DNA of 64,000 bases from Acanthaster planci (GCF_001949145.1 NW_019091362.1:1991838-2055837); one strand, 5' to 3'; counted from the first letter of the stretch, positions 1,968 through 46,668 are shown. Notes: generated by a model not told the origin, from the letters alone. Translations and numbers: made by a program.

Positions 1968-2081
1968 ATCCATGCGACAGTAATCCTTGTGTCCATGGAG
2001 AGTGCCACTCTAGGCCTAATGGCGGATACAGGTGCCAGTGTAAACAAGGGTATACTGGAGACAAATGTGAAATAGAACCAG
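1968..2081 (+). CDS. Gene 1 exon: EGF-like domain
   Basis: ctag|ATCC...CCAG|gtacgt, 114 nt, phase 1-1; [38 protein letters not shown] (6-Cys EGF pattern). Confidence 0.9.
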
Positions 2082-14000: not shown

Positions 14001-17000
14001 ATTTGCGCCGACTGCATGCAGTGAGAAAGGTCAAAGAGACAGTCATAAGGGACTTCCTCTTCGCTGACAACTGTGCTTTAATGCCACTAGTGGGAAGTCA
14101 ATGTATGCAAGCTATTACTGATAGGCTTTCCAAGTCATGGGACAACTTCGGCCTGATCATAAATATTATGAAACCTGAAGTTACGTGCTAACCCCGCCCT
14201 GGTAAGCCCCACCAGAAACCCAACATCACAGTTAAAGGTACTGGTCTTAATAATATGCATGTGTTCACATATTTAGGCAATACTCTGTCACATGAGGCGA
14301 ATATTGACGAAGAAGTCGAAAGCAGAATCGCCAAGGCCAGCAGTACCTTTGGGAGGCTTCAAAAAGCTATCTGGGAGCGATGGGGTGTCAGGCTTAGTAC
14401 CAATCTCAAAGTTTACCAAGCTGTAGTTATCACTGCACTTCTTTACACATGCCTAGCCGGCAGCTGAACCATTTTCGTACTGCCTGTCTCTGTAGGCTGA
14501 TGAGAATTAGATGGCAGGATCACATACCCGATACGGAGGTCCTTGCCCGTGCCAGTATGCTTAATAAAATACCCTCATTGAGACCATGACTTCAAACTTG
14601 CTGATTGATAGAGTGTCTTCAGAGATGGCTGATGAGTCCAATCTGTGCGTGGAACTGTCTGCCAAAGATTGTACACATTACTTCTTCAGACCAATATTAT
14701 CTCTCGTTCGCTTAGGCTCGTACAGTTTCAACCTTTGAGGATGAATTTCACCTTCATTATTAGGCACGTTCGCACGAACACTTTTTTTTTTAGTGACAAT
14801 CGGTTGTCCCTGGTATAGTATGGAAGAAAGACAGAACTCACGACGATAAGGTATGTTTTGCTCCTTGTTCGGGAATCGTATGTTGATACCATAATGAGCT
14901 TGAATTTTTGAAGAAGTGTTTAATGCCAGATTCTTCGTAAATACCTTGCTTTTAGTTACATACATTTCCTCTTGAGACCACTATCATCTCTCGTTCACTA
15001 AGGCTTAAAGTTTCAACCACTGAGGATGAATTGTACCTATATTAGTGGGCACGTTAGCACGAACACTGTTTGTCTACTCACAATCGGTTGTCCCTGGCAT
15101 AGTATGCACGTAATACTTCCTGGGTACGAGGACAATAGTCCAGAGGTCGACATATTACCGTTGCGCTTACTCTCCGACTTCTGTCGGTGGGGATTAATTT
15201 GTGATATCAATATGACTGTTTCGAATAATTGTCACCACTTTACCCTCTGCCACCTGCTATAAACCCACCCACATACGAATTTATCCGGACGACTCTTGAA
15301 CAGGCAGGTGAAATGGATTCGCAGGTGATACAGGAGTAGATCTCGGATTGAGAGTTAACGCCCCCACGCTTTGGCACCGGAAACATGTATTCAAACTGAA
15401 AGAACAACAGTAAACTAAAAGAAATGTTAAAAAATCTGACAGGTCTGATCCCTCCCCCATCCTCTCCTGTAATACGACGAATAACAGACTTTTCGTTCCC
15501 ATTCAGGTGCAACCGGCAGACTCGCTACAAATGACGTAAAATACAAACTAAGAGGTTGTCTATTGTATTTCCTATTGTAAGGAAATATGGATTGGGCTGT
15601 CAACAGGCAAAACCAACTTAAAGAATCCCTTTTTGGAATGCCCATGTACTGCAGTACAGTGTAGACAAAAAATCTTGTAATCAGCTGCAAGATCGAATCA
15701 ACAGTGATGAAATGTGAGAACTGCAGCACTGAAAGTTTAATCACACTTTAACAGTATTACATGCGATTCACAATAGTGCGCCTCCTCGAGTTTGCAACGC
15801 GTTTGGCCAATCACAACGCGCGAAATCTGTTGACCCTTTCCAAACGCGCATTTGGTCGACAGATTTCGCGCACTGTGATTGGCCAACGCGTTGCAAACTC
15901 TTGGTGGTGCCATTGTTGAACGGCCGTATTAAAGAGTTTCGTTATGTTGAGTAATCCTTGAGGATAGCAAACTGTATGTACTTTGCATAATACCTCACAC
16001 GTGGCTTTTTTGAACTTCTGTACAGGTTCTCAAATAGTTTCAACGGCGTTTAGCATTGTCGGTAAGCCAACAGAGCAAAGCACAACCCTCAACCCAAGAT
16101 TTAAAGCGGATAAGGCAGTGGACGGTAGCCCCTCAGCTCGCCTGTTACCTGATAACACCTGCACACACACCGGTAAGACGATTCCTTCCGCTCTCTCCTT
16201 CGAGAGCAGTATGAAGCAATTTCTGTGTAGTTTCTTTGTCGAAACGACCAATTAAGATTATGTCTTTGGTTGGAAATTGCCTACGACAGTAATAAATCGC
16301 TCAATATTTCTTGTTAGTTCCTCCAATCTCTTCATTAGGAAACCCCATTTTTTGTTTTGATTTTAGCCATATTGCATTCAGACTTACTTTATTCAAAAGT
16401 TGTTTTTCCTGGGATTCACTGGGTGGGTTTTAAACCACCTGGTAAATTGTAGACCACTGGGCCTTACCAGGTACCAGCCAAGTTGCTGAAGTATGGCGGG
16501 TTTACCCTCGCAGCTGAGCTCCATAGCCTTCTGAATGCCTTTGGAGCCGTGCCACAGTCCTGGAAGGGTGCCAATATTGCTGACATCTATAAGCGAAAGG
16601 GCGTATGCGGAAACAGTCGTGTCGTATCGCTGTTATCCACTGCTGGAAATGTCTTAGCCTGAGTCATGTTGGACCGTTTGCTTTCCGAATTAAGAAGTGG
16701 ACAATGTCTTTCCCGAGTCTCAGTGTGGCCTTTGTCGCGAGCGCTGGACTGAAGACATGATCTTTGTCATGCGCCAAATACAGGAAAAATGCGGGGACCA
16801 GCACTGCGACCTGTGCGCCGCCTTTATCGTTCTGAAAAAAAAGGCATTCGATACGCTTGACCTCGAGTTGCTGTGGGCGTTATTCACAAGATCGGCTGTC
16901 CTCTAAGGTTCACTGCCTGCTGAACGCTTTCCACGCCGACATGGCTGCCCGAGTACATTATTCCGGAAAGGTGTCAGCGTCGTTCCTTATTTCTATGGGC

Positions 17001-20000
17001 GTGAAACAGGGCTGTGGACTTGCTCCAGTCTTATTTAATCCATTCCTGGCCTTAGTGATGCGCGTGCTCTACTTTCACCGTGTGGGAGCAGGAGCTAAAA
17101 ATAGCAACACCTTTGTTTACCTCGGTATGGAGCTATCTGATAATCTTGATCTCGGTGTGAAAATCCAACGAAGAAACTGTCGTGCTGCGTCAGCGTCAGC
17201 GTTTGTTAATCTCTCCCGTCGAGTCTCTCCCGCTGACCTTCGGTGCGAAAACGGCGGTCTTCAGTGTCGTTGGCGTGTCCATCCTCTTGTACGGCTGTGG
17301 GCCTGGACTCCGTACCGATTGCAAATCTGAACCCTGCAGGCGTACTACAACAGCTGCCTAGCTGCATCTTGGGAGAGCAATGGTGGCATGCCCCCACTGG
17401 ACCACTGGAAGTTCTGCTGCTTCGCCGTCAGCTGCGATGGGTTGGCCACATACCTCGCCAAAAAAAACAAAAACAACATTTTTTTCAAACTTGAAAACCT
17501 CTATGTAGGCCTGAAATTTGGAAATCTCTTATTCTTTTTGGATTATAAGTTTGATAAGAAGTGATAACACTGAAATAGAGATAACACCGAGTTTAGCTCA
17601 GAAAGTCCACCGCGTCTGTTTTAGAAAGTCAAAAAGGCTGGACCAAAACCAATTTTGTAATGAAAGAGTTGTGTTCTGCTTATGATTTCTCGAACTCCCT
17701 TTCTTCTTGCTCACTCAGAGGCGGATAAGCCAAATCCATGGTGGAGAGTGGACCTCGGAGAAGAGCACTGCATCAGCAAAATACGAATTCTGAACCGGGG
17801 AGATTGCTGCAGTAAGTCTTGAGCATCCAACGAATAAACAAGAATTAAAACACACATGTCATCTCTCCATTGATATCAAAAACCTAAGATATGGAAACGC
17901 TGTCAGTATTGGATTCCTCCTCAATCAAATTAGGTGGTCCAACAAACCAAAATCACATTTTCTTCCATATTGAATGAAAATGGACAGATCCAAATCCAAA
18001 TTTCCTTGGGGCATAAAAATTGGCCTTTGGGAGGTCAAAATGTTTCATTTAATCTATTTGGCACTTTTGAGGGGTAAAGCCACTTTAATTAGGGCATTTT
18101 TGCGATCATTTTGAAAGAAAAGATATGAAATAGGTCAAAAATTGACCCTCCTTTTTGGGGGGATCCATGGACCCTGTTGCCCCCTAGAATCTGCTCTTGA
18201 GGGTTTGGCCTCGTACAGCTTCATTACCTCCAATAGAAATTCCTCTAAATGAAAGCCATTTCATGTCTTTATGATATGTAAGGGTATTTTCCTCAATCTG
18301 ACCTAATTTTGTAATACAGGCGAACGTTTGAAGGGCGCAGTTGTTCGCGCTGGTGACAGCACAACAATCACCGACAACCCAACTTGTGGGTCGCCCGTGA
18401 CTGCCAAGCAAGCCCAACCACTAGGCAGTACGATAGAGTTTACTTGTGAGCCAGCGTTCAGGGCGCGCTACGTTAGCGTGGATATCCCCGGCAGAGCCAC
18501 CCTGCAACTATGTGAAGTCACTGTGGAGGAGATACACCTTAGTCAGTGCCCAGGTGAGTACTAGCTGGGAACGGTATCGTAGTTCTTTTCAGACTTACTT
18601 TGGCTAACTGGAGGATACCACTTCGTAAAGCTAGTTCTCAGGCAAAGATAACTTTGATTTATTCCGAATATGTCCGTGACACTAAACGCAAAGCTCCCTG
18701 ACACTCCACATTAGTATTCAATGCCAGAAAAAGGCGACCAAGTCGTGAAGCCTAATTGTAGCAACTAGCCATGACGACCCCTGTTGTCATATTTGTAACG
18801 ATCAGCTGTCGTCTTTCGTTTGACTCGGTCGATTCCGAAATCCCAGGGCTTAATAACAATACTGACAAGTCAAGTTTTGCAGAAAAACCTTTCTGTTGAC
18901 CGGTTTCCAGTTCGACCAGCATTTTACAACTATTCAAAACGCAAAGGAATGTAGAAAGTAGTAACTTGCAAGAGTCTTGTCCACGAGAATTATTTCCGGT
19001 ATTTGGGGATGGGCTGTTATTAATGGTTCAGCATTGGTATGAAGGGGAAGGTTGCTATGTTGTCATCGTTGTCACTGTGTGTGGGTGAATTTTTTTTCAT
19101 AACCCTAATTCGACATTTGTTAAATGGCTTTTAAATGCTTTGCCATCGCCACCTGAAGGGAATCCACCTACCGAGGACGATAGTACAGTAACTTTCGCAG
19201 AGGTAGATGAAATAATGGTGTTGTAAACATGTGATATGACGAATGACAGACAGCCAAATGCAAAATGAAACGCGGTTATTGAATGCCTTTTCTTTTAGTA
19301 AGAAAGGTTTGTACAGTAAGTGACTCTCAGCAGGCAAACGAGCCCCTGAAGTTATGGTTGGCAAACGACATGTTTTCATTAACAACAAATCACACTTTTC
19401 TTTCAATTTGATATTAACAGATTCTAACGTGTCTTTTTTCAGCCTGTCCGGATACACAATGTAGTCTGAACTGTCCGGGAGGTTTTGAAAGGGACGCGAA
19501 CGGCTGCCAGATGTGTGATTGCGTAGGTAAGTACGACCACCGTTTCCAATGCAAACGAGAAAGAAATGCCAAACTCTTGTGTTGATGATAACGGGAGAAC
19601 TTGTCAGAGTAGAGTGGTTTGAACTCGAATCTTTCTTTCTCCAACCTCTTGGTTAACCGCTCCTTCTTACAATATGTTCCGTATCAATCTAGGATATAGG
19701 CATTCCTATATTTGTTGCACAAACGGTCTACACGTTAGTGGTAATTGCGATTCCCGTGATCACAATTTCCTTAATTACCCAGAGATCTCAGAAGACGACG
19801 AGGAAGAAGAACCTGATAAGGAAGGGAAAGTTTTTCAAACCGACGGAGGTAGCCACGAGCTCATCATCAGTCGTGAGGTTAACAGGAAGCTGGAACAGGA
19901 ATTTGTCATCGACCGCAACGACCCGTTAGAGTTCACGCTGTTATCGTCCAGTGGAAACATCAAAATAGGTAAGAATCTCGATATTCAGGAAAGGTTCGAG

Positions 20001-23000
20001 GCTAAAACACGTCACGTTTCCTCTGAGATTATCGAGTGGAGCTGCTGTTATAGTACCAAGTTTGATAGGTCGTCTTTCTTATTCTTTTTTTAATAGTTAC
20101 GTTGATAACACACTTGGAAGTCCAGAATGATAAGGGCATGAAACTGAATTCCGTCAAATTTCCAAATTGGTGTATGAGCCATAAGAAGCTGAAATTTGCC
20201 GTGGATTTCATCACAACCGGCTTCAAGCTCCTGATTATAACATCATCCGGAGAGGAGAGATTACTGACTAAGTATATAAAAAAGAGCAACGAGAAGTTCA
20301 CCTGCGAATCTCTGAAACTGAAAGCCCAGAAAAAGAAGAGGTGCAAAGTGGAATACAAACCAAGGAGAAGATGTCGAGGTAAGAGGCTAATTGTCCTGAC
20401 GGGTTTCAGGCTGTATAATACCCACTCTGCAAATACGGGCCTTTCACAATGGAGTGCCTCCAAGAGTTTGCAGCGCGTTGGCTAATCACAATGCGCGAAA
20501 ATCTGTCCACCTAATGCGCAATTTGAAAGGGTCGGCAGATTTCGCGCGCTGTGATTGGCCAATGCGTTGCAAACTTTTGGAAGCTCACTATTGTGAAACG
20601 CCCGCTTTATGTTTTGACTGCAAAATGGCTTTATTTCAATATTTACAGGGGTGATGGGTGTTTCAATTAGATTTCCCCAATCTTTAAAGTTCTGACTATT
20701 GAAGACATTTTTCCGACAAATAATTTGATCAAATTATTTCTTTTAAACCACTCGAATAACTATTAATAGGAAAGTACGGAAAGTATCTGAAGAAAAAGCA
20801 CGGTAAAAGACGAGGTAAGTTTTCCCACAAATGTTCTGTGAATTAATTTTGGTGCGAACATTGTGTTTAACACTGGTAGTTTCGTTTCGTTAATTCATTC
20901 ATTAATCTCAAACAATGTTGGCAATTGACGTCCTTCAATGGTTGTAAAGCCAATTCTCAAAACGTATTTTGACTTATTTCATTCGCGTTTAAGCACGATT
21001 TCTTATTCAACTTAAAGGAAGTCTCTCCTTGTCCAACCAGAAAGTCCTTCCATTGAAAAATTGGAAACATGGCTTGGGCAACAAGATCTGGGAATTAACT
21101 GTTAACAACTGATTTCTTCAAAGACGGGGGTTGGAATACGCACCCCACGGCTGTAAGATGGGTTAACATCAGGATTAAAACTACAGCCTTTGAAAATGCT
21201 TGGTTAACAATGATGGACATCAACACGCTTTACTCCAACATTTTTCTTGAACTTAATTATCCTGAACACTTTACTCTTTCCTTCTATTTAAACTTTCTTT
21301 TTATCAGTTAACAAGACGGAAATATAACCCAAAGAGAATGAACTTTCGTTTCATTTCCTGTTAGATGACATCAATCATATTAAGCAGAAAGGAAATAAAA
21401 CGTCGTAGACTTGGTTTTTCTCTCACTTATATAATTTTCTTGATTGCAAATTAAATTGAAGCAAACAATTTGAGTTTGTATATGAGTAAAGTGGAAACAC
21501 TGTTCCTATTTTATTGTAGAATAATTGAACATTTCTTGTTATCATTTAATAATTATAAAATGTAACCCGATAAAGAAGGAATGATTTTTTTAATTTTTGT
21601 GCTGTAAGATATGGATCATTTTCAGCATAAAGAAAACAAACGTGTAAGCCTCTGTTTTTCTCTCACTTATATAACTTTCTAACACATAACTTAATTCGGA
21701 GCAAAGAATTTGAATTTATACATGAGTAAAATAGGAGAACTGTTCCTATTCTATTTTCTATAACAGATATATGACATTTGGCAGTGCAAAGCCTATTTCA
21801 AATATAATTTATATTAACATGGAGTCCATTTTCTTCCTTATTTCATAGAATCCCATTTGAAGAAGAAGCACGGTAGCAGTGAGTATCACAGTTTAATCGA
21901 TCCTGTGAAAAAATGTTTTGATTCCAATTTCTGTTGCCAAATTAATTTTAAACGACAACTTTAGACACTAATTTCTCGCACGTTGGATCTTTTACCGCTA
22001 GTGCCAAATAATGATGACCTGATCTGATGATTATCTAGCTGAATCACATTAAATGACATTACAATATACCATGACCACCCTTCACCTTAGGAAACAATAC
22101 TGAAAACTTAATTCAATCATTTTTTAAAACAAACAAACAAACAAACAACCCAACACCCCAACAACCCCCAACAAACAAACAAACAAACAAACAAAACCAC
22201 GTTTGGTTTCATCATTACGAAGCTTAGCATTTCTGATAGAATATTGACAAAACTTGGTACATCGCAAAAAAACTCAAATTTCTGTACAACAATCGCGTCC
22301 TGGTGTATCATCAAATCCATGAAATATACATACAATTTGTCTCTATTTTGTAGGTAGTGGTATTTAATTCATAAATTCAAAGATTTTGAAAGGAAGAACC
22401 AGACAATATGTATTGTTTAATTTTGTAGGCTCCTCCTCTGGAAGGAAGAAACACCACAAGAAGAGTGAGTTGAATATATTTTTCGAGTAATCGGGTTTCA
22501 ATATTAAATAATTCAAATGAGTAACTCTATTCTTCTTTAATTTTACACACTACATAATTGCCCATATTTATATTAACCTCGTATTCGAAGGGGCGCTGTC
22601 TAAATATTTCCTACATAAATTGGATTTTCTACTCTCCCTAAAANNNNNNNNNNNNNNNNNNNNNNNNNNNNNNNNNNNNNNNNNNNNNNNNNNNNNNNNN
22701 NNNNNNNNNNNNNNNNNNNNNNNNNNNNNNNNNNNNNNNNNNNNNNNNNNNNNNNNNNNNNNNNNNNNNNNNNNNNNNNNNNNNNNNNNNNNNNNNNNNN
22801 NNNNNNNNNNNNNNNNNNNNNNNNNNNNNNNNNNNNNNNNNNNNNNNNNNNNNNNNNNNNNNNNNNNNNNNNNNNNNNNNNNNNNNNNNNNNNNNNNNNN
22901 NNNNNNNNNNNNNNNNNNNNNNNNNNNNNNNNNNNNNNNNNNNNNNNNNNNNNNNNNNNNNNNNNNNNNNNNNNNNNNNNNNNNNNNNNNNNNNNNNNNN

Positions 23001-26000
23001 NNNNNNNNNNNNNNNNNNNNNNNNNNNNNNNNNNNNNNNNNNNNNNNNNNNNNNNNNNNNNNNNNNNNNNNNNNNNNNNNNNNNNNNNNNNNNNNNNNNN
23101 NNNNNNNNNNNNNNNNNNNNNNNNNNNNNNNNNNNNNNNNNNNNNNNNNNNNNNNNNNNNNNNNNNNNNNNNNNNNNNNNNNNNNNNNNNNNNNNNNNNN
23201 NNNNNNNNNNNNNNNNNNNNNNNNNNNNNNNNNNNNNNNNNNNNNNNNNNNNNNNNNNNNNNNNNNNNNNNNNNNNNNNNNNNNNNNNNNNNNNNNNNNN
23301 NNNNNNNNNNNNNNNNNNNNNNNNNNNNNNNNNNNNNNNNNNNNNNNNNNNNNNNNNNNNNNNNNNNNNNNNNNNNNNNNNNNNNNNNNNNNNNNNNNNN
23401 NNNNNNNNNNNNNNNNNNNNNNNNNNNNNNNNNNNNNNNNNNNNNNNNNNNNNNNNNNNNACGTTCTTTTCCCTCTGATATTCTTCAAAGTTGAATTCTC
23501 CAAATGCAACGAGTAACACAATCGCAAATTACGTGGGAAAATAGCATTTTGTAGTAGGGTGATACCTTTGTAAACTTGAAAATAAATTTGTTTCCGTCTT
23601 TATAACCCTCGTCGTTGATAATGGTACTCAACTAACTTTGTGATAATGTTTCTCACTAGGTTTTTATTTCAATTTAATTTTAATTATTTTTCTCATTAAT
23701 AATTGCAAAATGCAACCCAATAAGTTGGAATAAATATATCATTTCGTTTCTGCTGCAAATCATGAATCACATTTTACAGAAATTAAACAAAACATTCTTG
23801 CCTTGGTGTCTCTCATTATTTTCTCACACAAACGTAATTTGGAGCAATTTGAATTTACTCCTGAGTGAAGTTGAAATAGTGTTACTATTCTATTCTCAAT
23901 AACAGATATGTGACATTTGGCATTTTAAAGCCTATTTCAAATATAATTAATATTATTATGGAGTCCATTTCCTTNNNNNNNNNNNNNNNNNNNNNNNNNN
24001 NNNNNNNNNNNNNNNNNNNNNNNNNNNNNNNNNNNNNNNNNNNNNNNNNNNNNNNNNNNNNNNNNNNNNNNNNNNNNNNNNNNNNNNNNNNNNNNNNNNN
24101 NNNNNNNNNNNNNNNNNNNNNNNNNNNNNNNNNNNNNNNNNNNNNNNNNNNNNNNNNNNNNNNNNNNNNNNNNNNNNNNNNNNNNNNNNNNNNNNNNNNN
24201 NNNNNNNNNNNNNNNNNNNNNNNNNNNNNNNNNNNNNNNNNNNNNNNNNNNNNNNNNNNNNNNNNNNNNNNNNNNNNNNNNNNNNNNNNNNNNNNNNNNN
24301 NNNNNNNNNNNNNNNNNNNNNNNNNNNNNNNNNNNNNNNNNNNNNNNNNNNNNNNNNNNNNNNNNNNNNNNNNNNNNNNNNNNNNNNNNNNNNNNNNNNN
24401 NNNNNNNNNNNNNNNNNNNNNNNNNNNNNNNNNNNNNNNNNNNNNNNNNNNNNNNNNNNNNNNNNNNNNNNNNNNNNNNNNNNNNNNNNNNNNNNNNNNN
24501 NNNNNNNNNNNNNNNNNNNNNNNNNNNNNNNNNNNNNNNNNNNNNNNNNNNNNNNNNNNNNNNNNNNNNNNNNNNNNNNNNNNNNNNNNNNNNNNNNNNN
24601 NNNNNNNNNNNNNNNNNNNNNNNNNNNNNNNNNNNNNNNNNNNNNNNNNNNNNNNNNNNNNNNNNNNNNNNNNNNNNNNNNNNNNNNNNNNNNNNNNNNN
24701 NNNNNNNNNNNNNNNNNNNNNNNNNNNNNNNNNNNNNNNNNNNNNNNNNNNNNNNNNNNNNNNNNNNNNNNNNNNNNNNNNNNNNNNNNNNNNNNNNNNN
24801 NNNNNNNNNNNNNNNNNNNNNNNNNNNNNNNNNNNNNNNNNNNNNNNNNNNNNNNNNNNNNNNNNNNNNNNNNNNNNNNNNNNNNNNNNNNNNNNNNNNN
24901 NNNNNNNNNNNNNNNNNNNNNNNNNNNNNNNNNNNNNAAGTTCCTTTTCCTTTAATTTCACTTTCTGCTGTTAATCATGAATCACATTTCACAGAAAGAA
25001 AAGTGTCCCTCATGTTTTTCTCACACACAAACGTAATTTGGAGCAATTTGAATTTGCTCATGAGTGAAGTTGAAATAGTGTTACTATGCTATTCTCTATA
25101 ACAGATATGTGACATTTGGCAGTGCAAAGCCTATTTCAAATATAATTTATATTAACATGGAGTCCATTTCTTTCCTTATTTCATAGAATCCCATTGGAAG
25201 AAGAGGCATGGCAGTAGTGAGTTTGAAAGTTTAATAAATTCCTAACTAAAATATTATGATTCTGACTGTGAGCCCAAGCAGTTGGTTTCATGTTTTCCTT
25301 GAGATATGTTTAGGCTCATGCCACATTGCAGTCCATTACTGTTATTAATTTTTGTCTATTTGAAGCAACTATTTACGATGTACCGAGACATCAGAACTAC
25401 AATGCTGCAAACTTAAGTTGCACATTTTAGATTAGTGACAAAAAGGTTTCACGGGATCAAGTTTGAAATTTCTTATCAAATATCGGCGAAATTTTGGTCA
25501 TTGATCAAATTGCTGTCCGACAAGTCATTGTATCTGGTGTGAGGATGCTCCATGAATTATGCACACGTGTAATGTAGCTCTTATTGTCGTGTTGGTATCT
25601 GGTATTTAGGTTTCAAATCTCACGTTGTCTTAGGAAGATCCAAACAGTTTTTATTCGTTTATTTTCAGGCTCATCTGGACGGAAGAAGCACAGGAAAAGT
25701 GAGTCCGTCTGTGAAAATGTCTGCATCCTTACTTTCTTTTATACTTTTGGTAGATGGGTATCGTTTTGTTTAACCCCACATTCCATAGGGTTCAGTGAAA
25801 ATTGATTAAAGTGATGAGAAAATCCCTTTTCTTTGTCTGATATCTTGTTTGCCATCTAAACCTCCGTGTCTTGATCAGCGTGAGTATTTAAAATACAACA
25901 GCGGGTCCCGTGTCGTAGTTCTGCGCTGTCATTTACTAGCGGTGCAGTGCATCCAATCTCCCGATCTGGTCTGGAACTATTAAACCGACCAAGAACATGT

Positions 26001-29000
26001 CTTTTTCCCATAAATATGTACCATTTTAGTAAAAGATTCAAACGAATTTAATATGCCATAAATTTCGACAAATTTGTTCAAAAATTTTTCTTTTATTTCC
26101 CCGAACTCTCCCGTCAATTTGATGGTATATTAGTTGTCCAGAAGAAAAATTATGGATCTGGCGCACGCGTGGTGAGTTCTGCGTGCTGCGTGCACACAGA
26201 CTCTTAACCAATTGGAATCGCTTATTAATCTCATCTCATAATAATACGTGGACTGAAGAGGGCGTGAAGCTAGTTCGCTGTCCGTCCTGACCATTTGGCC
26301 CTGGTCGGCCTGACTTTCAATGTCCAAATTCGTCTAAATTGCGTTTCGGTTTAAAAGTTATGCAGGCTTGTCTAATCATTATATGTGTTGCTGCAGCCTG
26401 CAGTAACACATCTGATCGGCATTATCCCTAAAGCCCCCCAATTGGCTCAATACCAGTACCCGTGTGTATTGGTCGTGGTGCCCCAAGTTTTTATACGCCA
26501 CGCACGACACGCCACGGAATGACCGTACCGTGTACGGCAATTTTACCAGTGCGTGCCAGCATTGTACACGTACGTAGGCTTAGAACATTCTGCGGGAAAG
26601 TAAATTGTGCGTGTGCGATGTCCATGTTTCCCTTAGGTCAACACGAGACAAAAAGGATGTCCTGATTATAATTGTTCGCAAATGTACGTCACACCTAACG
26701 CCATCATTTGTCAGGATTGAAACATTAATTTGAGGGGTTAAGGAAAGTAATATACCAAAGGGATTTTTTTCCAGATTTACATCCACTACCGTATTCAATG
26801 CGTGCTAGAAATATTTAAATCAATTAATTATTAATTAATCAGCAACCTTGCAATACACATTCGGCGAAAACACCTTAATAACAATCCAGTATTTGTTTCT
26901 TTTTAGTGTGAAGGTATTAATGGAAATTCATATATTCATCCACGTCCAATTTGTAACCCTTTGCTGTAGATGATGCTTGGTTACCAGCAGATGTACTCTA
27001 CATGAATACCCAAACTCATCCTTACCTTTCTTTTGGTCTCTATTTGAAACTTTCAACTTAATCATCATGTAATGGCGAAAGGTACCAAACAAAATGGGGA
27101 TTTAAACTGAAGTTCATTTTCTTTGCGTCACTTTCTTCACGGTATTGTGTTGATTTCTTTCTTTCTTTTAACCTTTTCTCTTCATTTCCATTTTCCGCTG
27201 CCTAGAAGCACTACAAAAACAGTAGTTCAGTGGTTTTTGTTCATTTATCGAGTTTTTGTCGCATTTTAATCCCAAACCTAACATTTTCGCTGTTGGTGAT
27301 GCTTGCTCATAAGTGATCTATGTTTAAATTGAAAATCTTCACTTTCATCTATAATGACATGTAATTGCAAACGTACCAAACAAAACTCGGATTTAAAACC
27401 CCGAAGTTTATTTTCGTTGCTTGAAATCGACCATTCATGCTGAACAGAAACAAAGCATAGTAAAGTTCGTGTGACTTTTTTATTTCAAGTGGAATCAGAA
27501 ATCATATTCTTCTGTCACTCTCTTCATGTTGCCAAACCCTGCGTCAATTTCTTCATGGTATTGTGCTGCTGTATTCCAGTTTTGTATTTTTGATGTGTTC
27601 TCCTACTTATCTTTTTCAGCTGTCAAGAAGTACCGCAAGAAACGTAAGTTCAGCGGTCTTGCTACTGTTAAAGCCTTTGTTACATTTTATGTTATAAAAA
27701 AATGAAGCCAAATATCCTAGTTTAAGAGCAGCTACCTCCTTTCGTTACGAATGTAGTAGAAATGGTTTTTAAACTGCCTTCTATGTTTTACTTTGATGCT
27801 CTTATTGGATTCACTCTCTAAATAAGTCGGTTTAATCAAAAAATAATTAAAATTTATATATTTAAGTAGATTGGAAGTGAGCGCAATGTTAAACACTAGC
27901 TTCTAGATGTTTGTATGTTTTTCCTGCCTTGTCAAGAGATGTTTTTTCTTGTTTTGTTTGTTGTGAAATACATTCCTCTAAATCCTTTTTCGGGCAGAAT
28001 TATCTAAAAAGAACAACTGCTAAAAAAGAAACTGCAAGTTATATTCACAAGTGTTTATTTTGTTTTTCATGTTTTGACTATTTTGAAAACAAACCTTGGA
28101 TCGGCCAAATGTACAGTTGGTCCACAAAATAATTTTCCATTGTTTTACCATGCTGACAGTCGTTGGCGTAAATCTATGCCGGGGACTGGGGATGGAGCAC
28201 TATTTCAACTCACAAAAAAGCCCGGCCGTGTACATTCCAAACGCGGGGGTATTGATGGACGCTGTATAACACCAGGGGGCGCTGTTCATAATACTCATTG
28301 TAAACCCATTTAAACTTGCACCCTTACAAATCGACCCATCTAAAGCTTATGCACTTTTTGTGGCTTTTCATTATTAATGAAATAGTGTTGTTGGGCAGTT
28401 CAGAGTATACTTCAGAATGCGCCATTTTTTTTTCTCATCACAAAAAGTGAGGGGATGATCCAGTATAGCCCATGACTGGTCAAAAAGCAAGGGGATGTAC
28501 ACCCATATCCCCATCCACAGAATTTACGCCCGTGCTGAGAGTTAGTTTACAGGGAGCCATATTTTGATATGAAATGCCGACATTTGGCGCGCTTACACCG
28601 GTTATATAGTTTTCGTAATAATGCCAAACTGGTATACATTACTTTGCAGGTTATCGAAGACGGTCTGGAAGCGGTAGTGGTACGTTAACTTGTTCTTTTC
28701 ACATTCATATGTACATTGTGTCTGTCTTGTTCACCTCTGTCTTTGTGTAACAGTGTGTAGCAATGGCGTAGGTAGGCTTTGGAGGGGGTCAAGGAGTGGG
28801 AGGGCAGTTGCTCCTTTTGACTCCATGCACCCTTTAGGTATGCCACTGACTTTGTACAACGGGCGGCTCATTCACAAACATGTTGAATAGGTCAGTGTCT
28901 ACACCAGAGTTACGCGTATAGTACCGATGACTTGGAGATGAGTGACCTCCCTCTCCCCCAAAAGCTCGATTTTTCTGAGGGGCAGGGGAGTTCCCGGGGG

Positions 29001-29200
29001 GTTGTAGTTTCCCCTGTACCCCCCCCCGCGGCTACGCCACTGGTGTGAGGGGGAGACGACACACTGCCCATAAACTTAATCAATGACGTCAAGATTTGTT
29101 TACATTGTGCGTTCTTATGTGCCCCATTAGAAAGCGCACACGCAAACAAAGCGTGATGTTATTATTTCTTTCAGGTCTGTTGTATTTTGTGGGTGCCTAG
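1968..29200 (+). CDS. Gene 1 (spliced, 5' end outside window): (EGF)n - F-type lectin - antistasin - unknown domain - polybasic micro-exon tail; probable extracellular mosaic protein
   Basis: Chain of AG/GT-bounded phase 1-1 exons that join in one frame: EGF 1968-2081, 2636-2749, 5027-5140, 7942-8055; FTP 16026-16172, 17719-17811, 18320-18553; antistasin 19443-19526; 19783-19968; 20097-20378; micro-exons 20770-28679; stop TAG 29198-29200. No signal-peptide exon seen in the window. Confidence 0.8.
2636..2749 (+). CDS. Gene 1 exon: EGF-like domain
   Basis: atag|ATCC...CCAG|gtacgt, 114 nt; [38 protein letters not shown]. Confidence 0.9.
5027..5140 (+). CDS. Gene 1 exon: EGF-like domain
   Basis: 114 nt, [42 protein letters not shown]. 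Confidence 0.9.
6142..6253 (+). pseudogene. Frameshifted EGF exon copy (112 nt)
   Basis: CATGGGGTGCCAC instead of CATGGAGAGTGCCAC (2-nt loss) gives [14 protein letters not shown] with TAG at 6183-6185; splice sites intact; could be an assembly error. Confidence 0.75.
7942..8055 (+). CDS. Gene 1 exon: EGF-like domain (last of array)
   Basis: 114 nt, [42 protein letters not shown]. Confidence 0.9.
9104..9830 (-). mobile_element. 3' fragment of a CR1/L2-like non-LTR retrotransposon
   Basis: Minus-strand [34 protein letters not shown] resembles the SF..G...WN.LP..LR C-terminal motif of CR1-group ORF2; ends in an (AATA)n-type tail at 9104-9130; boundaries approximate. Confidence 0.6.
10240..14560 (+). 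mobile_element. Near full-length, degenerate RTE/BovB-clade LINE (APE endonuclease + reverse transcriptase) in gene 1 intron
   Basis: [104 protein letters not shown]; many stops and frameshifts; 5' boundary approximate. Confidence 0.92.
12178..12860. mobile_element. Solo LTR (683 bp) inserted in the RTE element
   Basis: Starts TGTTA, ends TAACA, flanked by 4-bp direct repeat CGGA (12174-12177, 12861-12864); removing it restores the RTE frame [10 protein letters not shown]. Confidence 0.8.
14690..15105. repeat. Diverged direct duplication (~130 bp, period ~287 bp)
   Basis: ATCTCTCGTTC...TGAGGATGAATT...GCACGAACAC...ACAATCGGTTGTCCCTGG present at ~14690-14822 and ~14977-15105. Confidence 0.7.
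15767..15930. mobile_element. Palindromic MITE, family A copy 1
   Basis: Long inverted arms GAGTTTGCAACGCGTTTGGCCAATCACA / TGTGATTGGCCAACGCGTTGCAAACTC; related copy at 20432-20604. Confidence 0.75.
16026..16172 (+). CDS. Gene 1 exon: F-type lectin (FTP/fucolectin) N-terminal part
   Basis: tacag|GTTC...ACCG|gtaag, 147 nt; [49 protein letters not shown] (GKP.QS, A.KAVDG, CTHT motifs). Confidence 0.9.
16460..17460 (+). mobile_element. Internally deleted RTE-clade LINE reverse transcriptase fragment
   Basis: [64 protein letters not shown]; disrupted. Confidence 0.85.
17719..17811 (+). CDS. Gene 1 exon: F-type lectin middle part
   Basis: ctcag|AGGC...TGCA|gtaagt, 93 nt; [31 protein letters not shown] (canonical PWWRVDL and NRxDCC). 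Confidence 0.92.
18320..18553 (+). CDS. Gene 1 exon: F-type lectin C-terminal part
   Basis: tacag|GCGA...CCAG|gtgagt, 234 nt; [12 protein letters not shown]...NPTCG...[40 protein letters not shown]. Confidence 0.92.
19443..19526 (+). CDS. Gene 1 exon: antistasin-like module
   Basis: ttcag|CCTG...GTAG|gtaagt, 84 nt; [28 protein letters not shown] (C-x3-C-xx-GF-xx-D-x-NGC-xx-C-x-C). Confidence 0.88.
19783..19968 (+). CDS. Gene 1 exon: acidic patch + first half of an unidentified domain
   Basis: cccag|AGAT...ATAG|gtaag, 186 nt, phase 1-1; [62 protein letters not shown]. Confidence 0.8.
20097..20378 (+). CDS. Gene 1 exon: second half of unidentified domain, turning basic
   Basis: aatag|TTAC...CGAG|gtaag, 282 nt, open; [26 protein letters not shown]...[21 protein letters not shown]. 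Confidence 0.8.
20432..20604. mobile_element. Palindromic MITE, family A copy 2
   Basis: TTTCACAAT...GAGTTTGCAGCGCGTTGGCTAATCACA / TGTGATTGGCCAATGCGTTGCAAAC...ATTGTGAAA; central loop inverted relative to the 15767 copy. Confidence 0.75.
20770..20814 (+). CDS. Gene 1 basic micro-exon A (45 nt)
   Basis: aatag|GAAA...CGAG|gtaagt; [15 protein letters not shown]. Confidence 0.8.
21849..21878 (+). CDS. Gene 1 basic micro-exon B1 (30 nt)
   Basis: polypyrimidine catag|AATC...AGCA|gtgagt; [10 protein letters not shown]. Confidence 0.8.
22127..22197. repeat. (CAAA)n microsatellite
   Basis: Interrupted AAAC repeats. Confidence 0.85.
22429..22464 (+). CDS. Gene 1 basic micro-exon C1 (36 nt)
   Basis: ttgtag|GCTC...AAGA|gtgagt; [12 protein letters not shown]. 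Confidence 0.8.
25187..25216 (+). CDS. Gene 1 basic micro-exon B2 (30 nt)
   Basis: catag|AATC...AGTA|gtgagt; (K/E)SHWKKRHGS; ~90 nt of upstream intron nearly identical to that of B1. Confidence 0.8.
25669..25698 (+). CDS. Gene 1 basic micro-exon C2 (30 nt)
   Basis: tttcag|GCTC...AAAA|gtgagt; [10 protein letters not shown]. Confidence 0.8.
27198..27221 (+). pseudogene. Dead duplicate of micro-exon F
   Basis: ttttccg|CTGCCTAGAAGCACTACAAAAACA|gtagttcagtgg versus F ttttcag|CTGTCAAGAAGTACCGCAAGAAAC|gtaagttcagcgg; acceptor CAG>CCG and AAG>TAG; upstream intron also duplicated. Confidence 0.65.
27620..27643 (+). CDS. Gene 1 basic micro-exon F (24 nt)
   Basis: tttttcag|CTGT...AAAC|gtaagt; TVKKYRKK. 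Confidence 0.78.
28650..28679 (+). CDS. Gene 1 basic micro-exon G (30 nt)
   Basis: ttgcag|GTTA...AGTG|gtacgt; [10 protein letters not shown]. Confidence 0.72.
29175..29200 (+). CDS. Gene 1 probable stop-containing exon (exon extends to donor at 29321)
   Basis: tctttcag|GT CTG TTG TAT TTT GTG GGT GCC TAG = GLLYFVGA*; downstream CCAGG|gtgagt donor. Confidence 0.55.
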
Positions 29201-29949
29201 CTGCAGGATTTGATTAAAGGCCATAATGAATACATCAGACAATAATGCATTTTTAATTTTGTCGCTCACACCAGATTAGACGGAGAGAGTCGAAAGAAAA
29301 TGGATTGGAATCGGCACCAGGGTGAGTGTACTAACGCAGTGAAAGAGAAGTGTGAAGTGGTTTAGTCGCTTTGACTCAAATTCTTACACTCCATGTTAAT
29401 AAGTACATAAGCAACGGAGCAAATACGTTTAATATGGGATTAATAACAGCAAGTTATAGCTCCATGAAAAGTTAGAATTGCGAATATCAACAGAACTTTA
29501 GTCTCGCTACTTGCATGGCATGCAGGCACGAAAATTCAATCGATTTATCAGCATTCTGCCTTAATGTGCGATGCCTAAAGTAAAGCCCTGTTGAAAAAAA
29601 TCAGAATCTTAGAGAGTTTCAACATATTCACCTTGAAAGAACTACTCACAAATTTAGGATGTAATGTAAAAATTGTGTGGTTTGGCCCCATGTGCTTCGA
29701 ATGTACGTCAGTACCTTAAACCCAAGGCAACACAACAAGTAGTTCATTCATTCATCACATCTAGACTTGACATGCACAATGCTACCTATTATAGTATCCC
29801 ATAGTAGCGATTACACAAACTTTGAAAGGTACAGGTCACTCCTGCTTGACTGGTTACACAGTGCCCTCGCACTCATAGGCTGGGCTTCACGTACATTGTC
29901 AGACCAGCCAACCTCTGAAATCACAAAACTGTATACTGAAAATGCCAAA

Positions 29950-30340
29950 GTTGTATTTTTCACTTTACAAAATCGTATTTTTCAAAAATAAGTATATTTT
30001 TCCGTGATCGGTTCGACCAACTCTGGATCGAGTCAATACTTCTTCACGCATAACATTAATCAGGCGACAAATCTATTATCGAGGTTTGTGGACTGGGAGA
30101 GTTGGCCCTTTTCCCATCTGATTCGCCAACGTTTTCAAAATCTGAATACTTTGTTACAAAGAATGCACATTGCGCACGTCCAGGCTTTCGGGGTTTCCGT
30201 ACGGGGATTTGAGTCTACCGCACGCAAATCTCCGATGTAATGCACCCACTTCCATTTCCGAGGATTCGTAACTTCAGGACCGGTCTTATCAAAGTTTGAA
30301 TCTAAGTCAGAGATTAGTTTGGACACTTTATACATTTGTG
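29950..30340 (-). mobile_element. Possible decayed DNA-transposase N-terminal (BED/hAT-like zinc finger) fragment
   Basis: Minus ORF RKWKW...AMCILCNKVFRF resembles CxxC zinc-finger starts of hAT-like transposases; stops follow. Confidence 0.3.
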
Positions 30341-31648: not shown

Positions 31649-31770
31649 ATTCTGTGAACTTTGCAGGATCCTCGGAGGACACACGACATGAAATGTATTT
31701 TCATGATTACATTTTAATTTTAGCTAAATTTACGAAATTGCTTGTTTCTGTGCATGTGGTTTCTCTTTAG
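31649..31770 (+). other. Gene 1 probable terminal exon (3' UTR, or alternative coding end)
   Basis: Strong acceptor ctcttttttgttctctccttag|ATTCTGTGAACTTTGCAG; resembles gene 2 last exon (ATTCAGTGAGCCTTGCAG); open in phase 1 to TAG 31768-31770. Confidence 0.55.
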
Positions 31771-34700
31771 GATGACTACGCTATTCCTATGTTATATTTA
31801 TTTTAGTTTAATTCTATTTTAATTACCGTTCTCAGGTTGAAACAGTTGACGTTTAAATTAAGTTTTAGTGTACACACTAAATGGAAATAGAATTGTTGGC
31901 TGCATTCGAACAAAAATATGTTAACAAAGTTAGCCTTTAGCTAAAGTACTTCACGGTGATTAAAAGGTTGATTTTCTCAAATCACATAATCTTAGCAATA
32001 CAGCAACATAAAAAACCACGTTTATTACAGTTACCTCATTTCATGTGGAATCCATCCGAACAAGTCGTTTGATTTTGTTATATATACATGTACATCATTA
32101 GACACTTATGCATTCTATAGTTAATTACTAGATTGTCCAATCTAGGTCTTGTGTGGACCTTGTCCTGTGGTTAGCAAATAATATGCTGCGGTATGAGGGC
32201 AGACCAAGCTCATATTGTTCTCATTTGCTAATCACAATTGTTTCCAGAGACATGAAGCTCGTGCCTTCCAGGCAGCAAGGAAAACAATGTTCACCTTAAG
32301 AAAGTACAGTTTTTGTTGATTTAACTGGTGAAGTTTAAATTTTTGCGGATTTCATGTCATGATTTTTAAATGCTGAGGGTTTACCTCCTAAGAAACGTAT
32401 TTCGCTTAATGTGACTGAAATACTGGTCTGAATTTTGTGTGAACCTTGCTTGCTCCCTAATCCTCGAACAATTTTAATGATAGTCCTGTGGAGAATGAAG
32501 GAAATCCAGTTTGAAATCGCAAGTGTTGCTTCTTCCTTATAGGCCTAACCCTCAATTTGAAGAATTTTATTGAAAAGAGTTGAACTGACAAAACTAATCA
32601 TTCCACATAATACGACATTCCACGACATTTTAAAGTCTTCCGTGAAAAGTTTTTTTGTATTTTTTTCTGCTGCTTTTTATCCTTTCGTGCCATTACATGC
32701 ATTTCTAAATCATTTAGAATATTTTACATGCAGCACAGACGGGTTTCCCGTTGATTAAGGTTACAGATTGGTCATTGTTGATATTCCTAACCATTTGCAC
32801 AGGTGACTTTTCCTCCGAAAACCATGTTTAATAAAAAAAAAATAATGATATCGCCCTAGCTGTTCCCCAGTGGTGAGGCCCACCTTGTTGCTGCACCAAA
32901 GGGCCCATATTTACGGAACGGAAAGCGATACACAGTAATGTCGTGCGATATATTACGTTTTTACACAACAGCAAGAAACGACACAGTTTTTAAGTTAATG
33001 ATATTCCACATCAACAATGAAGTAGCAGCCAGACCATCAGATCGTGTCTAACTAGAAGGCTAATTGGCAAGAACACGCAGTCTCAGCTCGGTATCTTTGG
33101 GAAAATTACTTGTTGCAGCGGTTTGTCAAGAGACTACGAAGTATGTCTGCTCTGAATGTGAGCAACCTACAGAAACTTGTGTGTATTAGGCTATACTTTG
33201 GACTGCGCGGAATTCCCTCACAGCGAGCGTGAGAAATAGGCCTAAAATGTGCTCTTTTTGAACACTAACAGCAAACAGCTAATAGCTTGTTGCCTGGCTT
33301 TTCGTTTTGTATTCGGCGGTTCCTAGAGTATAACGAAGGAATTCAAGAGGCCTGCTGCCACACCCAGGCCCTCTTCAGAGGGAATTTGTGCGCCGAGAGG
33401 CCTTGCTCTGCCAAACGTAGCCAGGAAAAATGACATTTCCCCTTTTAGTTCCCAAAACAAGTCTCGCACACTAAACTACTTAGAAAGGCCTTTAGGTTCA
33501 GTATGAAAGATGGCATATAGTTCACACAACATTCAGACCATTTGATATCAATCAAGTTTTATATTTGGGTGTTTGGCCTCAGTTTATTTTATCATTAGTT
33601 CATCACAATTTTCTGGTGGCAGGTTTGAACATTAAATTACGCAAGCATTGATTCCTATATGTGTCTTTTCATTTATTGAAAGACTTAGTAGTCGATTTAG
33701 GGCTTCATCTTTGGCACAGGTTAAGTCTCTTCTTTCATGAATGTGTCATTTCTCGCTGCAAATTTTTGCGTTGGTGAAGTGCATACATTGTAATTTGTTT
33801 AGTGTTTTGGAAGACACACTCTTGGTTTTACCAACGATGTTGTGAGGGTGGAGATTTATTCAACGTATTCAAAATGCAACTTTGTCTTTTTACTATTATG
33901 GAGGGCTGGTGAAGGTGAAGGAGTTAAAATAAAAAGGCACCCACACCAGGGCTGCAGTCACTCCGTTTATTTCTGAAAGGAGCAAGCGGTGTGCAGGCCA
34001 GCAGCAAGGAAAAGACAGCACGTTGGGGGAATCAATTGCACAATTACAAAAATGACAGAAAAGGAAAGAAAAGAAATCCCATCAGTGAAATGCAAAATCG
34101 TCACCATAACAGACCCTATATACGAAGTAAAATACATGAAGTTCTAAACAGCCGTTCCTTACTATGGCTCAATTGTCAAGGTTTGAGAGCACATCCTGGA
34201 CTTCACAGTAAATCTCTTTTAAGAACACATTATAATAATCCCAAACATCAGATTACACTGTTAATGACAAAGAATTAGTTCAAACTGCCATTACATAGTG
34301 CCAAATTAAGCTTTTTACAGTGAAAGTAATGATTAAGTATCATTTACCTACTGTAACATGAGATTTCTCTCCAAAAGCAACAATTTCTCAAGAGACTAAA
34401 TCCAATTGATTGGAAACTCTGACCTTTGTGTTCTCATGTGCATGTGTTCTGTGAATTAGTCTAATCAACCAAAATACACCATGCGCAATGACCTACAAAA
34501 GCAATTTCAATCACCAAGAAGGAGCCTACATACTTTCACTATAATAATGTATACACACAAAAATATCAATTAAACGCTGGGAGCCCCCTCGACTGAAATT
34601 GTGATTACAGTGGATGACCAGCCGAATATACTTTTCTTAATGTGAACGCAAGAGGGCGTCCTTTGAACATTGTGACTTACGGGAAAGAAAATTCTAGTTT

Positions 34701-37700: not shown

Positions 37701-38229
37701 TTTTTATTTTGTATAAAAACTGCAATTTTCCATTCCCAGACGTTTAAACTCCCGCTTTTCTATTTTGGTAAAATTAATTCATGGGTAATTACCGCATTTG
37801 TCATGTGAGAAAGAGCTGTTGGTTAGCACTTCCAGCATGTGGAAGACTTTTAATCGAGGTACGCTACGTTTCCTTATATCGCTACTATGGAAATACTTAA
37901 TGTATCATGAAATGTATTTATTCGACAAAATAATCCATAATACTTTATTCTTTTAGACAGAGACACAAAACTAAGCCGTGAAAAAGGGCGGCAAAATGCC
38001 CCTGAAGATTGAACGCGCATGTTCATTCTCCCCGTATGCAGGAAGGTCCTGTGGTCCATGGGTTTTTGCAAGACAAATTACACCAGTTACGCTGCGTTGA
38101 AAACGCTTCTGCTGCGCTGAAAACGAACAGTGTTTTCAATGTAGCGCTTCTTGTTCTGCGGTTTCGAAGAAAACGACCAGTCCATTAGTGGCCCGCCTCC
38201 TATAACTCGCTGATGGCTTCCAAGCCTGA

Positions 38230-40850: not shown

Positions 40851-40859
40851 TGTGCAGTA

Positions 40860-46607: not shown

Positions 46608-46668
46608 ATGATGACGGCATCCAAGATTCTACTTGTGCTGGCTGCAATAGTCGCAATGGTCGCCGCAG
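46608..46668 (+). CDS. Gene 2 first coding exon: signal peptide (exon starts 46572)
   Basis: tgtag|GTTAG...GCAACATG (good Kozak); MMTASKILLVLAAIVAMVAA + G|gtattg, phase 1. Confidence 0.85.

What the first reader, a model, noticed from the sequence alone, without database searches (positions are those of the whole stretch)
20770..29200. Polycationic Lys/Arg/His/Ser tail assembled from a chain of 24-45 nt micro-exons on a lectin/protease-inhibitor protein
Seen: at least seven tiny AG/GT-bounded phase 1-1 exons, largely missed by the ORF track and spread over 8 kb of AT-rich intron. They splice in frame to [37 protein letters not shown][gaps][46 protein letters not shown]. That is about 33 K/R and 8 H in 75 residues, with one certain acidic residue. 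Every length is a multiple of 3, so any subset can be skipped. Inference: a splice-tunable charge module attached to an EGF/F-lectin/antistasin protein. It could act in binding sulfated glycans or microbial membranes, in coacervate/adhesive formation, or in matrix anchoring. I do not recognise this architecture from any described family.
Basis: partly seen in the sequence, partly recalled or inferred. Interest (0 to 1): 0.9.

Follow-up and report, generated by a model that had tools for sequence, protein, structure and literature searches.

The report
Starfish tube-foot protein's expandable cationic tail
Tiny spliced exons give this crown-of-thorns starfish protein a strongly positive Lys/Arg/His tail, lengthened by a repeated two-exon unit; the protein is likely part of the tube-foot glue, where the tail would grip negatively charged sugars much as in flatworm adhesives.

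Summary
The micro-exons are real. The window holds Acanthaster planci LOC110973026; its RefSeq model already has all seven exons and raw RNA reads join them at GT..AG sites. Three corrections. (1) The gene ends in a one-residue exon (D-stop, 29275), not GLLYFVGA. (2) No exon-skipping joint was seen; instead exon B splices back to exon A (75 reads), copies differ by a DNA-encoded variant, and a third copy of A's intron runs into an assembly gap: the A-B unit is tandemly duplicated, about four times in one run. (3) All 17 coding exons here are phase 1-1, so symmetry is no sign of regulated skipping. The protein is FAMeT-EGF-F-lectin-antistasin plus two unannotated domains predicted to have a galectin fold. 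Two paralogues and a Patiria homologue repeat the plan 'galectin-fold domain + basic repeat tail'. One paralogue, and by inference this gene, is up-regulated in tube feet. Domains resemble sea star footprint proteins; the tail (86% G/R/K/H/S) resembles flatworm adhesive ap1/ap3. Best reading: a cationic tube-foot adhesive component; function untested.

The parts
1968..8055 (+). Four intact 114-nt EGF exons (1968-2081, 2636-2749, 5027-5140, 7942-8055) in tandemly duplicated exon-intron units; RefSeq isoforms X1-X3 differ only here. The 5' part of the gene (signal peptide, FAMeT, EGF, first galectin-fold domain) lies upstream of the window.
   Evidence: Pfam EGF
16026..18553 (+). F-type lectin / F5-F8 type C domain in three exons (16026-16172, 17719-17811, 18320-18553)
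   Evidence: Pfam PF22633 E 2.2e-20; joints; boundaries
19443..19526 (+). Antistasin exon (84 nt)
   Evidence: PF02822
19783..20378 (+). Unannotated ~140-aa domain in two exons (19783-19968, 20097-20378), predicted galectin-like beta-sandwich without the canonical galactoside motif
   Evidence: no Pfam match at E<=5 for the first member; AlphaFold pLDDT 84.4; best match fungal galectin 3wg1 Z 14.1, rmsd 2.7, 128 aligned, 12% identity; motif absent in 7 of 7 copies
20770..20814 (+). Tail micro-exon E1 (45 nt)
   Evidence: 18 reads in, 22 out
21849..21878 (+). Tail micro-exon A (30 nt), first exon of the repeated unit
   Evidence: 104 reads A to B; 75 reads B back to A
22429..22464 (+). Tail micro-exon B (36 nt), second exon of the repeated unit; other copies carry A at 22444 (Arg to Lys)
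   Evidence: 72 of 95 RNA reads and a DNA-type contig carry the variant
23662..24937 (+). Third copy of the intron that precedes exon A, running into the 963-N gap 14 nt before the predicted acceptor (about 23988); further A-B unit(s) inferred in the gaps 22644-23460 and 23975-24937
   Evidence: gap content is inferred
25187..25216 (+). Tail micro-exon A' (30 nt), diverged copy of A
   Evidence: 24 reads in, 44 out; flanking intron 82% alike to A's over 250 nt
25669..25698 (+). Tail micro-exon B' (30 nt), diverged copy of B
   Evidence: 59 reads out; 64.5% alike to B's region over 279 nt
27620..27643 (+). Tail micro-exon C (24 nt)
   Evidence: 70 reads to D
28650..28679 (+). Tail micro-exon D (30 nt)
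   Evidence: 65 reads to the stop exon
29275..29321 (+). True last coding exon: completes Asp, then TAG (29277-29279); donor of a 3' UTR intron 42 nt after the stop
   Evidence: RefSeq ends
31649..32100 (+). Start of the terminal 3' UTR exon (3' end not mapped)
   Evidence: GT..AG joint 29320 to 31648 in X1; 56 loose read ends match it

Best explanation
This is Acanthaster planci gene LOC110973026, whose seven spliced micro-exons encode a Lys/Arg/His/Ser/Gly-rich tail (76 aa and about +31 charge in the reference model) with the A-B exon pair repeated in the mRNA, likely from tandem genomic copies, on a likely secreted tube-foot protein that likely acts in the temporary adhesive. Shown: splicing, stop exon, composition, B-to-A joints, domain content, family in Acanthaster and Patiria. 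Inferred: the folded, net-acidic body (pI 5.7; F-lectin, predicted galectin folds, EGF, antistasin, FAMeT) would bind glycans and other footprint proteins, while the disordered basic tail (pI 11.8) would bind sulfated or acidic glycans, the glycocalyx or the biofilm-coated surface electrostatically, and polyanions would release it, as proposed for flatworm Mlig-ap1 and Tmed-ap3. Because every exon is phase 1-1, unequal crossing-over can add or remove 22-aa units (9 K/R, 4 H each) without breaking the frame, so tail length and charge likely evolve by exon copy number rather than by regulated skipping.
For: Splicing and repeat. Read flow in X16 balances (97 into A, 104 A to B, 99 out of B; 22 entries, 24 exits), giving about 4.3-4.7 units; the 22444 variant splits 23:72, matching one reference-type copy and about three others. 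Contigs of run X9 (kind not on record; unspliced across the locus) lie at 1.7-4.3 times single-copy depth over the unit's introns. Family: LOC110991088 and LOC110991192 (contig of the same 11,795,022-nt length) and Patiria miniata LOC119723229 have the same unannotated domain followed by basic repeats; the Patiria tail is 338 aa, 43% K/R, period 38. Tissue: in PMC11093393 S3.7 (up-regulated in tube feet versus six other tissues) rows 162-166 are gbr.4.101, 103, 105, 106 (labelled LOC110991192) and 107; none of these five is listed in the other tissue sheets of that file; gbr.4.103 is 'fucolectin-related', 444 aa, with lectin, antistasin and disorder annotations and is my inferred match to the 3' half of this gene (418 aa from the lectin exon, 440 with one more unit). 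Known parallels: FAMeT, EGF, antistasin and FA58C domains in Asterias footprint proteins (PMC9382459); GRKHS-rich Tmed-ap3, 87.67% (PMC9229212) against 85.5% here; heparin blocks adhesion in Macrostomum and, as cited there, in the sea star Leptasterias (PMC6410801).
Against: No footprint proteomics, in situ signal or assay exists for this protein in anything I read. The match to gbr.4.103 rests on domain content, length and neighbours, not on sequence; that model is marked 'Secreted: No' (it lacks the N-terminal half), and gbr.4.102 and 104 were not found in the supplements searched. Tube feet are also sensory and mucus-secreting. The domain search found 10 proteins, all Acanthaster or Patiria, none from Asterias where Sfps are defined; the Sfp7/8 antibody peptide has no notable match (rank 64 of 176). 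The signal peptide was read by eye from Met34, not predicted. Copy-number estimates disagree between runs (about 1.5 to 22 times) and the tool warns that contig depth is no copy number.
Confidence: 0.6

Rival explanations
1. Surface-defence protein of tube-foot mucus: lectin domains bind microbes, antistasin blocks proteases, and the cationic His-rich tail (possibly released at basic sites) binds or damages bacterial membranes.
For: F-lectin and antistasin domains; PMC9382459 notes that WAP/antistasin domains may be antibacterial; net charge about +31; two RxK/RR sites lie near the tail end; a small signal-WAP-antistasin gene sits downstream.
Against: The cluster is up-regulated in tube feet, whereas PMC11093393 reports immune functions enriched in aboral skin, spines and papulae; the tail has only 8 L/Y/W/V residues in 76, unlike amphipathic lytic peptides (general knowledge). 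Not exclusive of an adhesive role.
Confidence: 0.2
2. Splice-tunable charge module: regulated skipping of micro-exons sets tail charge per tissue or condition.
For: All tail exons are symmetric; RefSeq models of the paralogues differ in tail exon content, 6 tails among 12 isoforms and 5 among 5; this gene's RefSeq isoforms do skip EGF exons.
Against: No skip joint among 15 rows shown in each; one tail in 3 of 3 RefSeq isoforms; symmetry holds for 17 of 17 coding exons. Only one raw-read run had usable depth (18-104 reads per joint).
Confidence: 0.15
3. The B-to-A joints come from back-splicing (a 66-nt circle or exon repetition) or reverse-transcription artefacts rather than genomic copies.
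For: In X1 and X2 (one study) exonic depth on the unit is about 19-22 times the single-copy part while X1's intronic contig is only 2.4-4.4 times other introns.
Against: A third copy of A's upstream intron is in the assembly; the 22444 variant and variant intron copies stand in the unspliced contigs of X9; a circle from the one visible B exon would carry only the reference letter.
Confidence: 0.1
4. Structural matrix or cuticle protein of the tube-foot disc: the tail anchors the protein to sulfated proteoglycans of the animal's own cuticle or connective tissue, with no part in the footprint.
For: Basic clusters are typical heparan-sulfate-binding elements (general knowledge); EGF and lectin modules fit matrix proteins.
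Against: FAMeT domains occur in 6 Asterias footprint proteins of adhesive cells (PMC9382459), five FAMeT-bearing Sfps besides Sfp1 and Sfp4b map to one chromosome there, like the cluster here.
Confidence: 0.15

Closest known systems
Sea star footprint proteins with FAMeT domains (Asterias rubens Sfp3, Sfp4a, Sfp5, Sfp7, Sfp8; PMC9382459, sections 2.4 and 3.3 and passages read)
   Same: FAMeT plus EGF, antistasin/WAP or FA58C modules, predicted disorder, tube-foot expression (inferred here), clustered genes.
   Different: One FAMeT here (Sfp7/8 have two); galectin-fold domain and K/R/H tail are not described for Sfps ('lysine', 'histidine', 'positively' occur 0 times in the main text; supplement not readable); no Asterias homologue of the new domain found; orthology not shown.
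Flatworm cohesive proteins Mlig-ap1 (KR regions) and Tmed-ap3 / Mile-ap3 (GRK, GRKHS repeats); PMC6410801 and PMC9229212, passages read
   Same: Secreted low-complexity polycation of G, R, K, H, S (85.5% here, 87.67% in Tmed-ap3), flanking lectin/EGF modules in Mlig-ap1.
   Different: Thousands of residues there, 76 to about 140 here; no vWD-C8-TIL or C-type lectin core; built from micro-exons here (exon structure of ap1/ap3 not seen); no sequence homology tested, so likeness is compositional and likely convergent.
Schistosoma micro-exon genes (MEGs); bioRxiv 10.1101/2023.06.21.545858, passages read
   Same: Secreted protein region coded by a chain of very short exons among long introns.
   Different: MEG variety arises mainly by alternative splicing of central exons and the genes are micro-exons nearly throughout; here only the tail is, skipping was not seen, and copy number changes; no homology implied.
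Galectins (Agrocybe galectin 3wg1, CGL2 1ul9)
   Same: Predicted fold of the unannotated domain: Z 14.1 and 13.5, rmsd 2.6-2.7 over 126-128 residues; Foldseek agrees.
   Different: 9-12% identity; the HxNxR and WGxExR motifs (recalled) are absent in 7 of 7 copies; sugar binding unknown.
Sponge GranRep secreted repeat proteins (bioRxiv 10.1101/2024.12.24.630263, passages read)
   Same: Secreted marine-invertebrate proteins with 30-nt repeats, a lysine-rich region and repeat numbers that vary.
   Different: GranRep repeats lie inside one exon and are expressed in immune-type cells; here each repeat is an exon pair on a multidomain protein.

Membership tests
Sea star footprint proteins (Sfps) | Found in secreted footprints by mass spectrometry | not testable with these tools
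   no A. planci footprint proteome found
Sea star footprint proteins (Sfps) | Expressed in tube-foot adhesive gland cells | tested here: inconclusive
   tissue level only: gbr.4.103 (inferred match) and gbr.4.106 (= LOC110991192) up-regulated in tube feet, PMC11093393 S3.7; cell type unknown
Sea star footprint proteins (Sfps) | FAMeT domain with EGF / antistasin / FA58C modules | tested here: met
   PF12248 E 2.8e-15, EGF, PF00754/PF22633, PF02822
Sea star footprint proteins (Sfps) | Signal peptide | tested here: inconclusive
   hydrophobic stretch after Met34, and paralogue P0066 starts at the equivalent Met; no predictor run
Sfp7/Sfp8 orthologue | Two FAMeT domains | tested here: not met
   one Pfam FAMeT stretch in P0001; paralogue LOC110991088 has two
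Sfp7/Sfp8 orthologue | Sequence homology to the Asterias proteins | tested here: inconclusive
   Sfp sequences not obtainable; antibody peptide rank 64 of 176; no Asterias hit among 10 (word-limited search)
Flatworm ap1/ap3 cohesive proteins | Low-complexity G/R/K/H/S polycation | tested here: met
   85.5% GRKHS, pI 11.8
Flatworm ap1/ap3 cohesive proteins | vWD-C8-TIL and C-type lectin core (ap1), or a repeat-only protein of thousands of residues (ap3) | tested here: not met
   none among 13 Pfam families at E<=1; length 956-994 aa
Flatworm ap1/ap3 cohesive proteins | Loss of adhesion on knockdown; inhibition by heparin | not testable with these tools
   bench test needed
Alternatively spliced micro-exon cassettes (MEG-like) | Chain of short symmetric exons | tested here: met
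   7 of 7 tail exons 24-45 nt, phase 1-1
Alternatively spliced micro-exon cassettes (MEG-like) | Isoforms made by skipping those exons | tested here: inconclusive
   no skip joint among rows shown (2 and 3 rows hidden); one deep run only; paralogue models do vary
Galectins | Galectin beta-sandwich fold | tested here: met
   predicted model, Z 14.1, rmsd 2.7, 128 aligned
Galectins | Conserved galactoside-binding motif (recalled: HxNxR, WGxExR) | tested here: not met
   0 of 7 domain copies

The most novel reading that the evidence does not exclude
This valvatid gene cluster encodes the missing polycationic component of sea star glue, the target of heparin-like release in the duo-gland model, convergent with flatworm GRKHS proteins; its charge is a heritable dial set by exon-pair copy number, from about 2 to about 20 units (tails of about 100 to 500 aa, up to about 200 K/R) among crown-of-thorns starfish, with splice variation added in the paralogues.
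Probability: 0.25. Interest if true: 0.8.

Novelty: new variant of a known kind. Interest (0 to 1): 0.52.

Why it matters
How sea stars let go is open: a glycosaminoglycan-competition model and a protease model stand side by side (PMC6410801), and the Asterias footprint catalogue's main text names no strongly basic protein. This cluster offers a concrete polycation to test, in a reef pest, and a candidate case of convergence with flatworm glue chemistry. It also shows a charge tract growing by duplication of whole exon-intron units, which short-read assemblies collapse, so the reference protein understates the tail. The gene model itself is in RefSeq as 'uncharacterized'; its ids were in 0 papers of the library.

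Tried and rejected
Allelic 3' end: I first read the joint 27648-29274 with 27 other letters as an allele; it is absent from the window (1 chance-level match on the minus strand) and matches the end of paralogue LOC110991088 isoforms X3/X7, so it was dropped as evidence of polymorphism. GLLYFVGA terminal exon: no read support among rows shown. Whole-protein AlphaFold without alignment: pLDDT 39.6, not used. Word-based homologue searches with single queries missed the paralogues; HMMER over representatives found them (150 of 18,977 hits listed, mostly EGF/lectin repeats, so distant family members may be hidden). PDB sequence search with the domain profile: best E 0.014, rejected. ESM Atlas gave no answer. 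No whole genome held, so paralogue and Patiria exon structures were not read. No RNA holder was on record; runs X13 (1-2 reads per joint) and X17 (none) have unknown tissues, so their blanks say nothing on tissue; X1's lack of laid contigs for A', B', D proves nothing (filter). Gene ids not found in the 2 supplements of PMC11957666; file 11 of PMC11093393 was unreadable and files 8 and 12 were cut. PMC6745474 not held; supplement of PMC9382459 not readable, and it may list basic Sfps. Earlier scan findings: none. No complex prediction was run.


Full report
Identity. The exon at 20097-20378 is identical to Acanthaster planci 'uncharacterized protein LOC110973026' (isoforms X1-X3). Pfam gives FAMeT (73-203), four EGF stretches, an F5/8-type lectin (556-678) and antistasin (698-723) in the 956-aa isoform. 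The window holds the 3' 569 aa: 17 coding exons plus a stop exon, which spliced by coordinates equal the end of isoform X1.

Observation. Raw RNA reads of run X16 join them in order with 18, 22, 104, 24, 44, 59, 70 and 65 reads; contigs of four further runs (RNA by guess, three studies) show the same joints down to exon C. Of three raw runs laid, one had usable depth, one had 1-2 reads per joint and one none. A post-hoc filter passed 5 of 6 candidates in the region against a simulated mean of 0.015. The reference tail has 76 aa, 34 K/R, 8 H, 2 D/E, 85.5% G/R/K/H/S, pI 11.8, charge about +31 at pH 8; the body is acidic (pI 5.7).

How the tail varies. No skipping joint is among the 15 rows shown in either lay (2 and 3 rows hidden; the smallest shown has 14 reads, so minor skipping stays possible). 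The three RefSeq isoforms share one tail and differ in EGF exons. All 17 of 17 coding exons are phase 1-1, so symmetry is the gene's general build. What the reads do show is B joined back to A in 75 reads and a contig running A-B-A. Flow balances: 97 into A, 104 A to B, 99 out of B, with 22 entries and 24 exits, about 4.3-4.7 units; position 22444 is reference-type in 23 reads and variant (Arg to Lys) in 72. The same variant and variant intron copies stand in the unspliced contigs of X9 at 1.7-4.3 times single-copy depth, and the assembly keeps a third copy of A's upstream intron that stops at the gap 14 nt before the expected acceptor. A' and B' are older diverged copies (82% and 64.5% flank identity). 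Each unit adds 22 aa with 9 K/R and 4 H; four units give 142 aa. Against a firm number: downstream exons in X16 are deeper (51-94) than upstream ones (20-26), partly from paralogue reads and likely 3' bias, so 2-5 units is the safe range; in X1 and X2 exonic depth suggests 19-22 units but X1's intronic depth only 2.4-4.4. This is unexplained.

Family. HMMER over 1.84 billion representatives and a profile search (10 hits) found the unannotated 140-aa domain only in three A. planci genes on a contig of the same length and in Patiria miniata LOC119723229. In the three relatives every copy examined is followed by basic sequence, and the last by tandem repeats: 10+10-aa units akin to A and B in LOC110991088, other units in LOC110991192, and a 338-aa tail of period 38 with 43% K/R in Patiria; in this gene only the second copy carries a tail. 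The plan is conserved while the repeat sequence is not. A four-sequence AlphaFold model (pLDDT 84.4, pTM 0.79, best of five) matches galectins (Z 14.1, rmsd 2.7, 128 aligned, 12% identity) without the recalled sugar-binding motifs (0 of 7 copies). Paralogue RefSeq models differ in tail content (6 tails in 12 isoforms, 5 in 5), which may be real splicing or mis-mapping over repeats. One apparent allele proved to be the paralogue's 3' end.

Tissue. In PMC11093393 (passages and supplements read) the table of genes up-regulated in tube feet lists gbr.4.101, 103, 105, 106 and 107 in a row, 106 being labelled LOC110991192. gbr.4.103 (fucolectin-related, 444 aa; InterPro ids that I recall as fucolectin, FA58C and antistasin, plus disorder) fits the 3' half of this gene, 105 fits LOC110991088 and 101 loosely fits the small WAP gene at 46608-48388. 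101, 103 and 105 share one co-expression module (membership 0.88, 0.91, 0.96), whose tissue I could not read. This assignment is an inference; no sequence was compared.

Comparison. Asterias footprint proteins Sfp1, 3, 4a, 5, 7, 8 carry FAMeT, with EGF, WAP and antistasin partners (PMC9382459, sections 2.4 and 3.3 read). Flatworm Mlig-ap1 has extremely basic KR regions around lectin and EGF modules, heparin blocks attachment and cations block release; the paper cites heparin inhibition in a sea star (PMC6410801, passages). Tmed-ap3 is 87.67% G/R/K/H/S (PMC9229212, passages). So the protein looks like an Sfp in its body and like ap1/ap3 in its tail, but membership of neither is shown: one FAMeT only, no Asterias homologue found, no vWD core. 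Schistosome MEGs share the micro-exon chain but vary mainly by splicing. Searches for prior description: gene and protein ids, 0 papers; Acanthaster with tube feet, adhesive and Sfp1, 2 reviews seen as listings only; crown-of-thorns, tube feet, farnesoic acid, antistasin, only the Asterias paper; micro-exon, tandem exon duplication, lysine-rich, 1 unrelated preprint. Most subscription papers are outside the library.

Verdict. Real feature, already present in an automatic gene model but not interpreted in anything I found. Most likely (0.6) a secreted tube-foot adhesive component whose polycationic tail binds anionic glycans or surfaces and grows by exon-pair duplication; rivals are mucus defence (0.2), matrix anchoring (0.15), splice tuning (0.15, not exclusive) and back-splicing for the repeat joints (0.1). 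New variant of a known kind; interest 0.52.

Noticed in passing
window 6142-6253: A fifth EGF exon copy is 112 nt (2 nt short), frameshifted, and absent from the RefSeq isoforms: a dead copy in the EGF exon array. Gaps at 3824-4032, 5835-5984 and 7033-7784 may hide more copies, so the EGF array may vary in number too.
   Followed up: partly
window 46608-48388 (+): Small downstream gene: signal-peptide exon (46608-46668), WAP exon (47209-47331), antistasin exon (48305-48388), all phase 1; related to the paralogues' WAP/antistasin modules; loosely fits tube-foot gene gbr.4.101.
   Followed up: partly
window 29322-31648: Intron in the 3' UTR, 42 nt after the stop codon, within the distance that usually escapes nonsense-mediated decay (rule recalled).
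   Followed up: partly
window about 10900-14600 and 16450-17450 (+); 38200-41100: Decayed LINE-like reverse-transcriptase fragments in the intron between the last EGF and lectin exons and downstream of the gene, judged by eye from broken ORFs; not scanned.
   Followed up: no
window 20430-20605 and 15770-15925: A short palindromic, very high-copy element (summed contig depth about 25,000 in X9; strand-switch joints) sits in two introns, likely a MITE.
   Followed up: no
window 27620-29279, run X1: X1 shows only the paralogue-type C/D end, at depth 2275 close to this gene's 2198, and no laid contig for A', B', D: co-expressed paralogue, filter hole or mosaic haplotype.
   Followed up: partly
P0025 (Patiria LOC119723229), residues 1639-1976: Tail repeats often begin with Gly and end in 11-aa units, which would fit phase-1 micro-exons; genome not available to check.
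   Followed up: no
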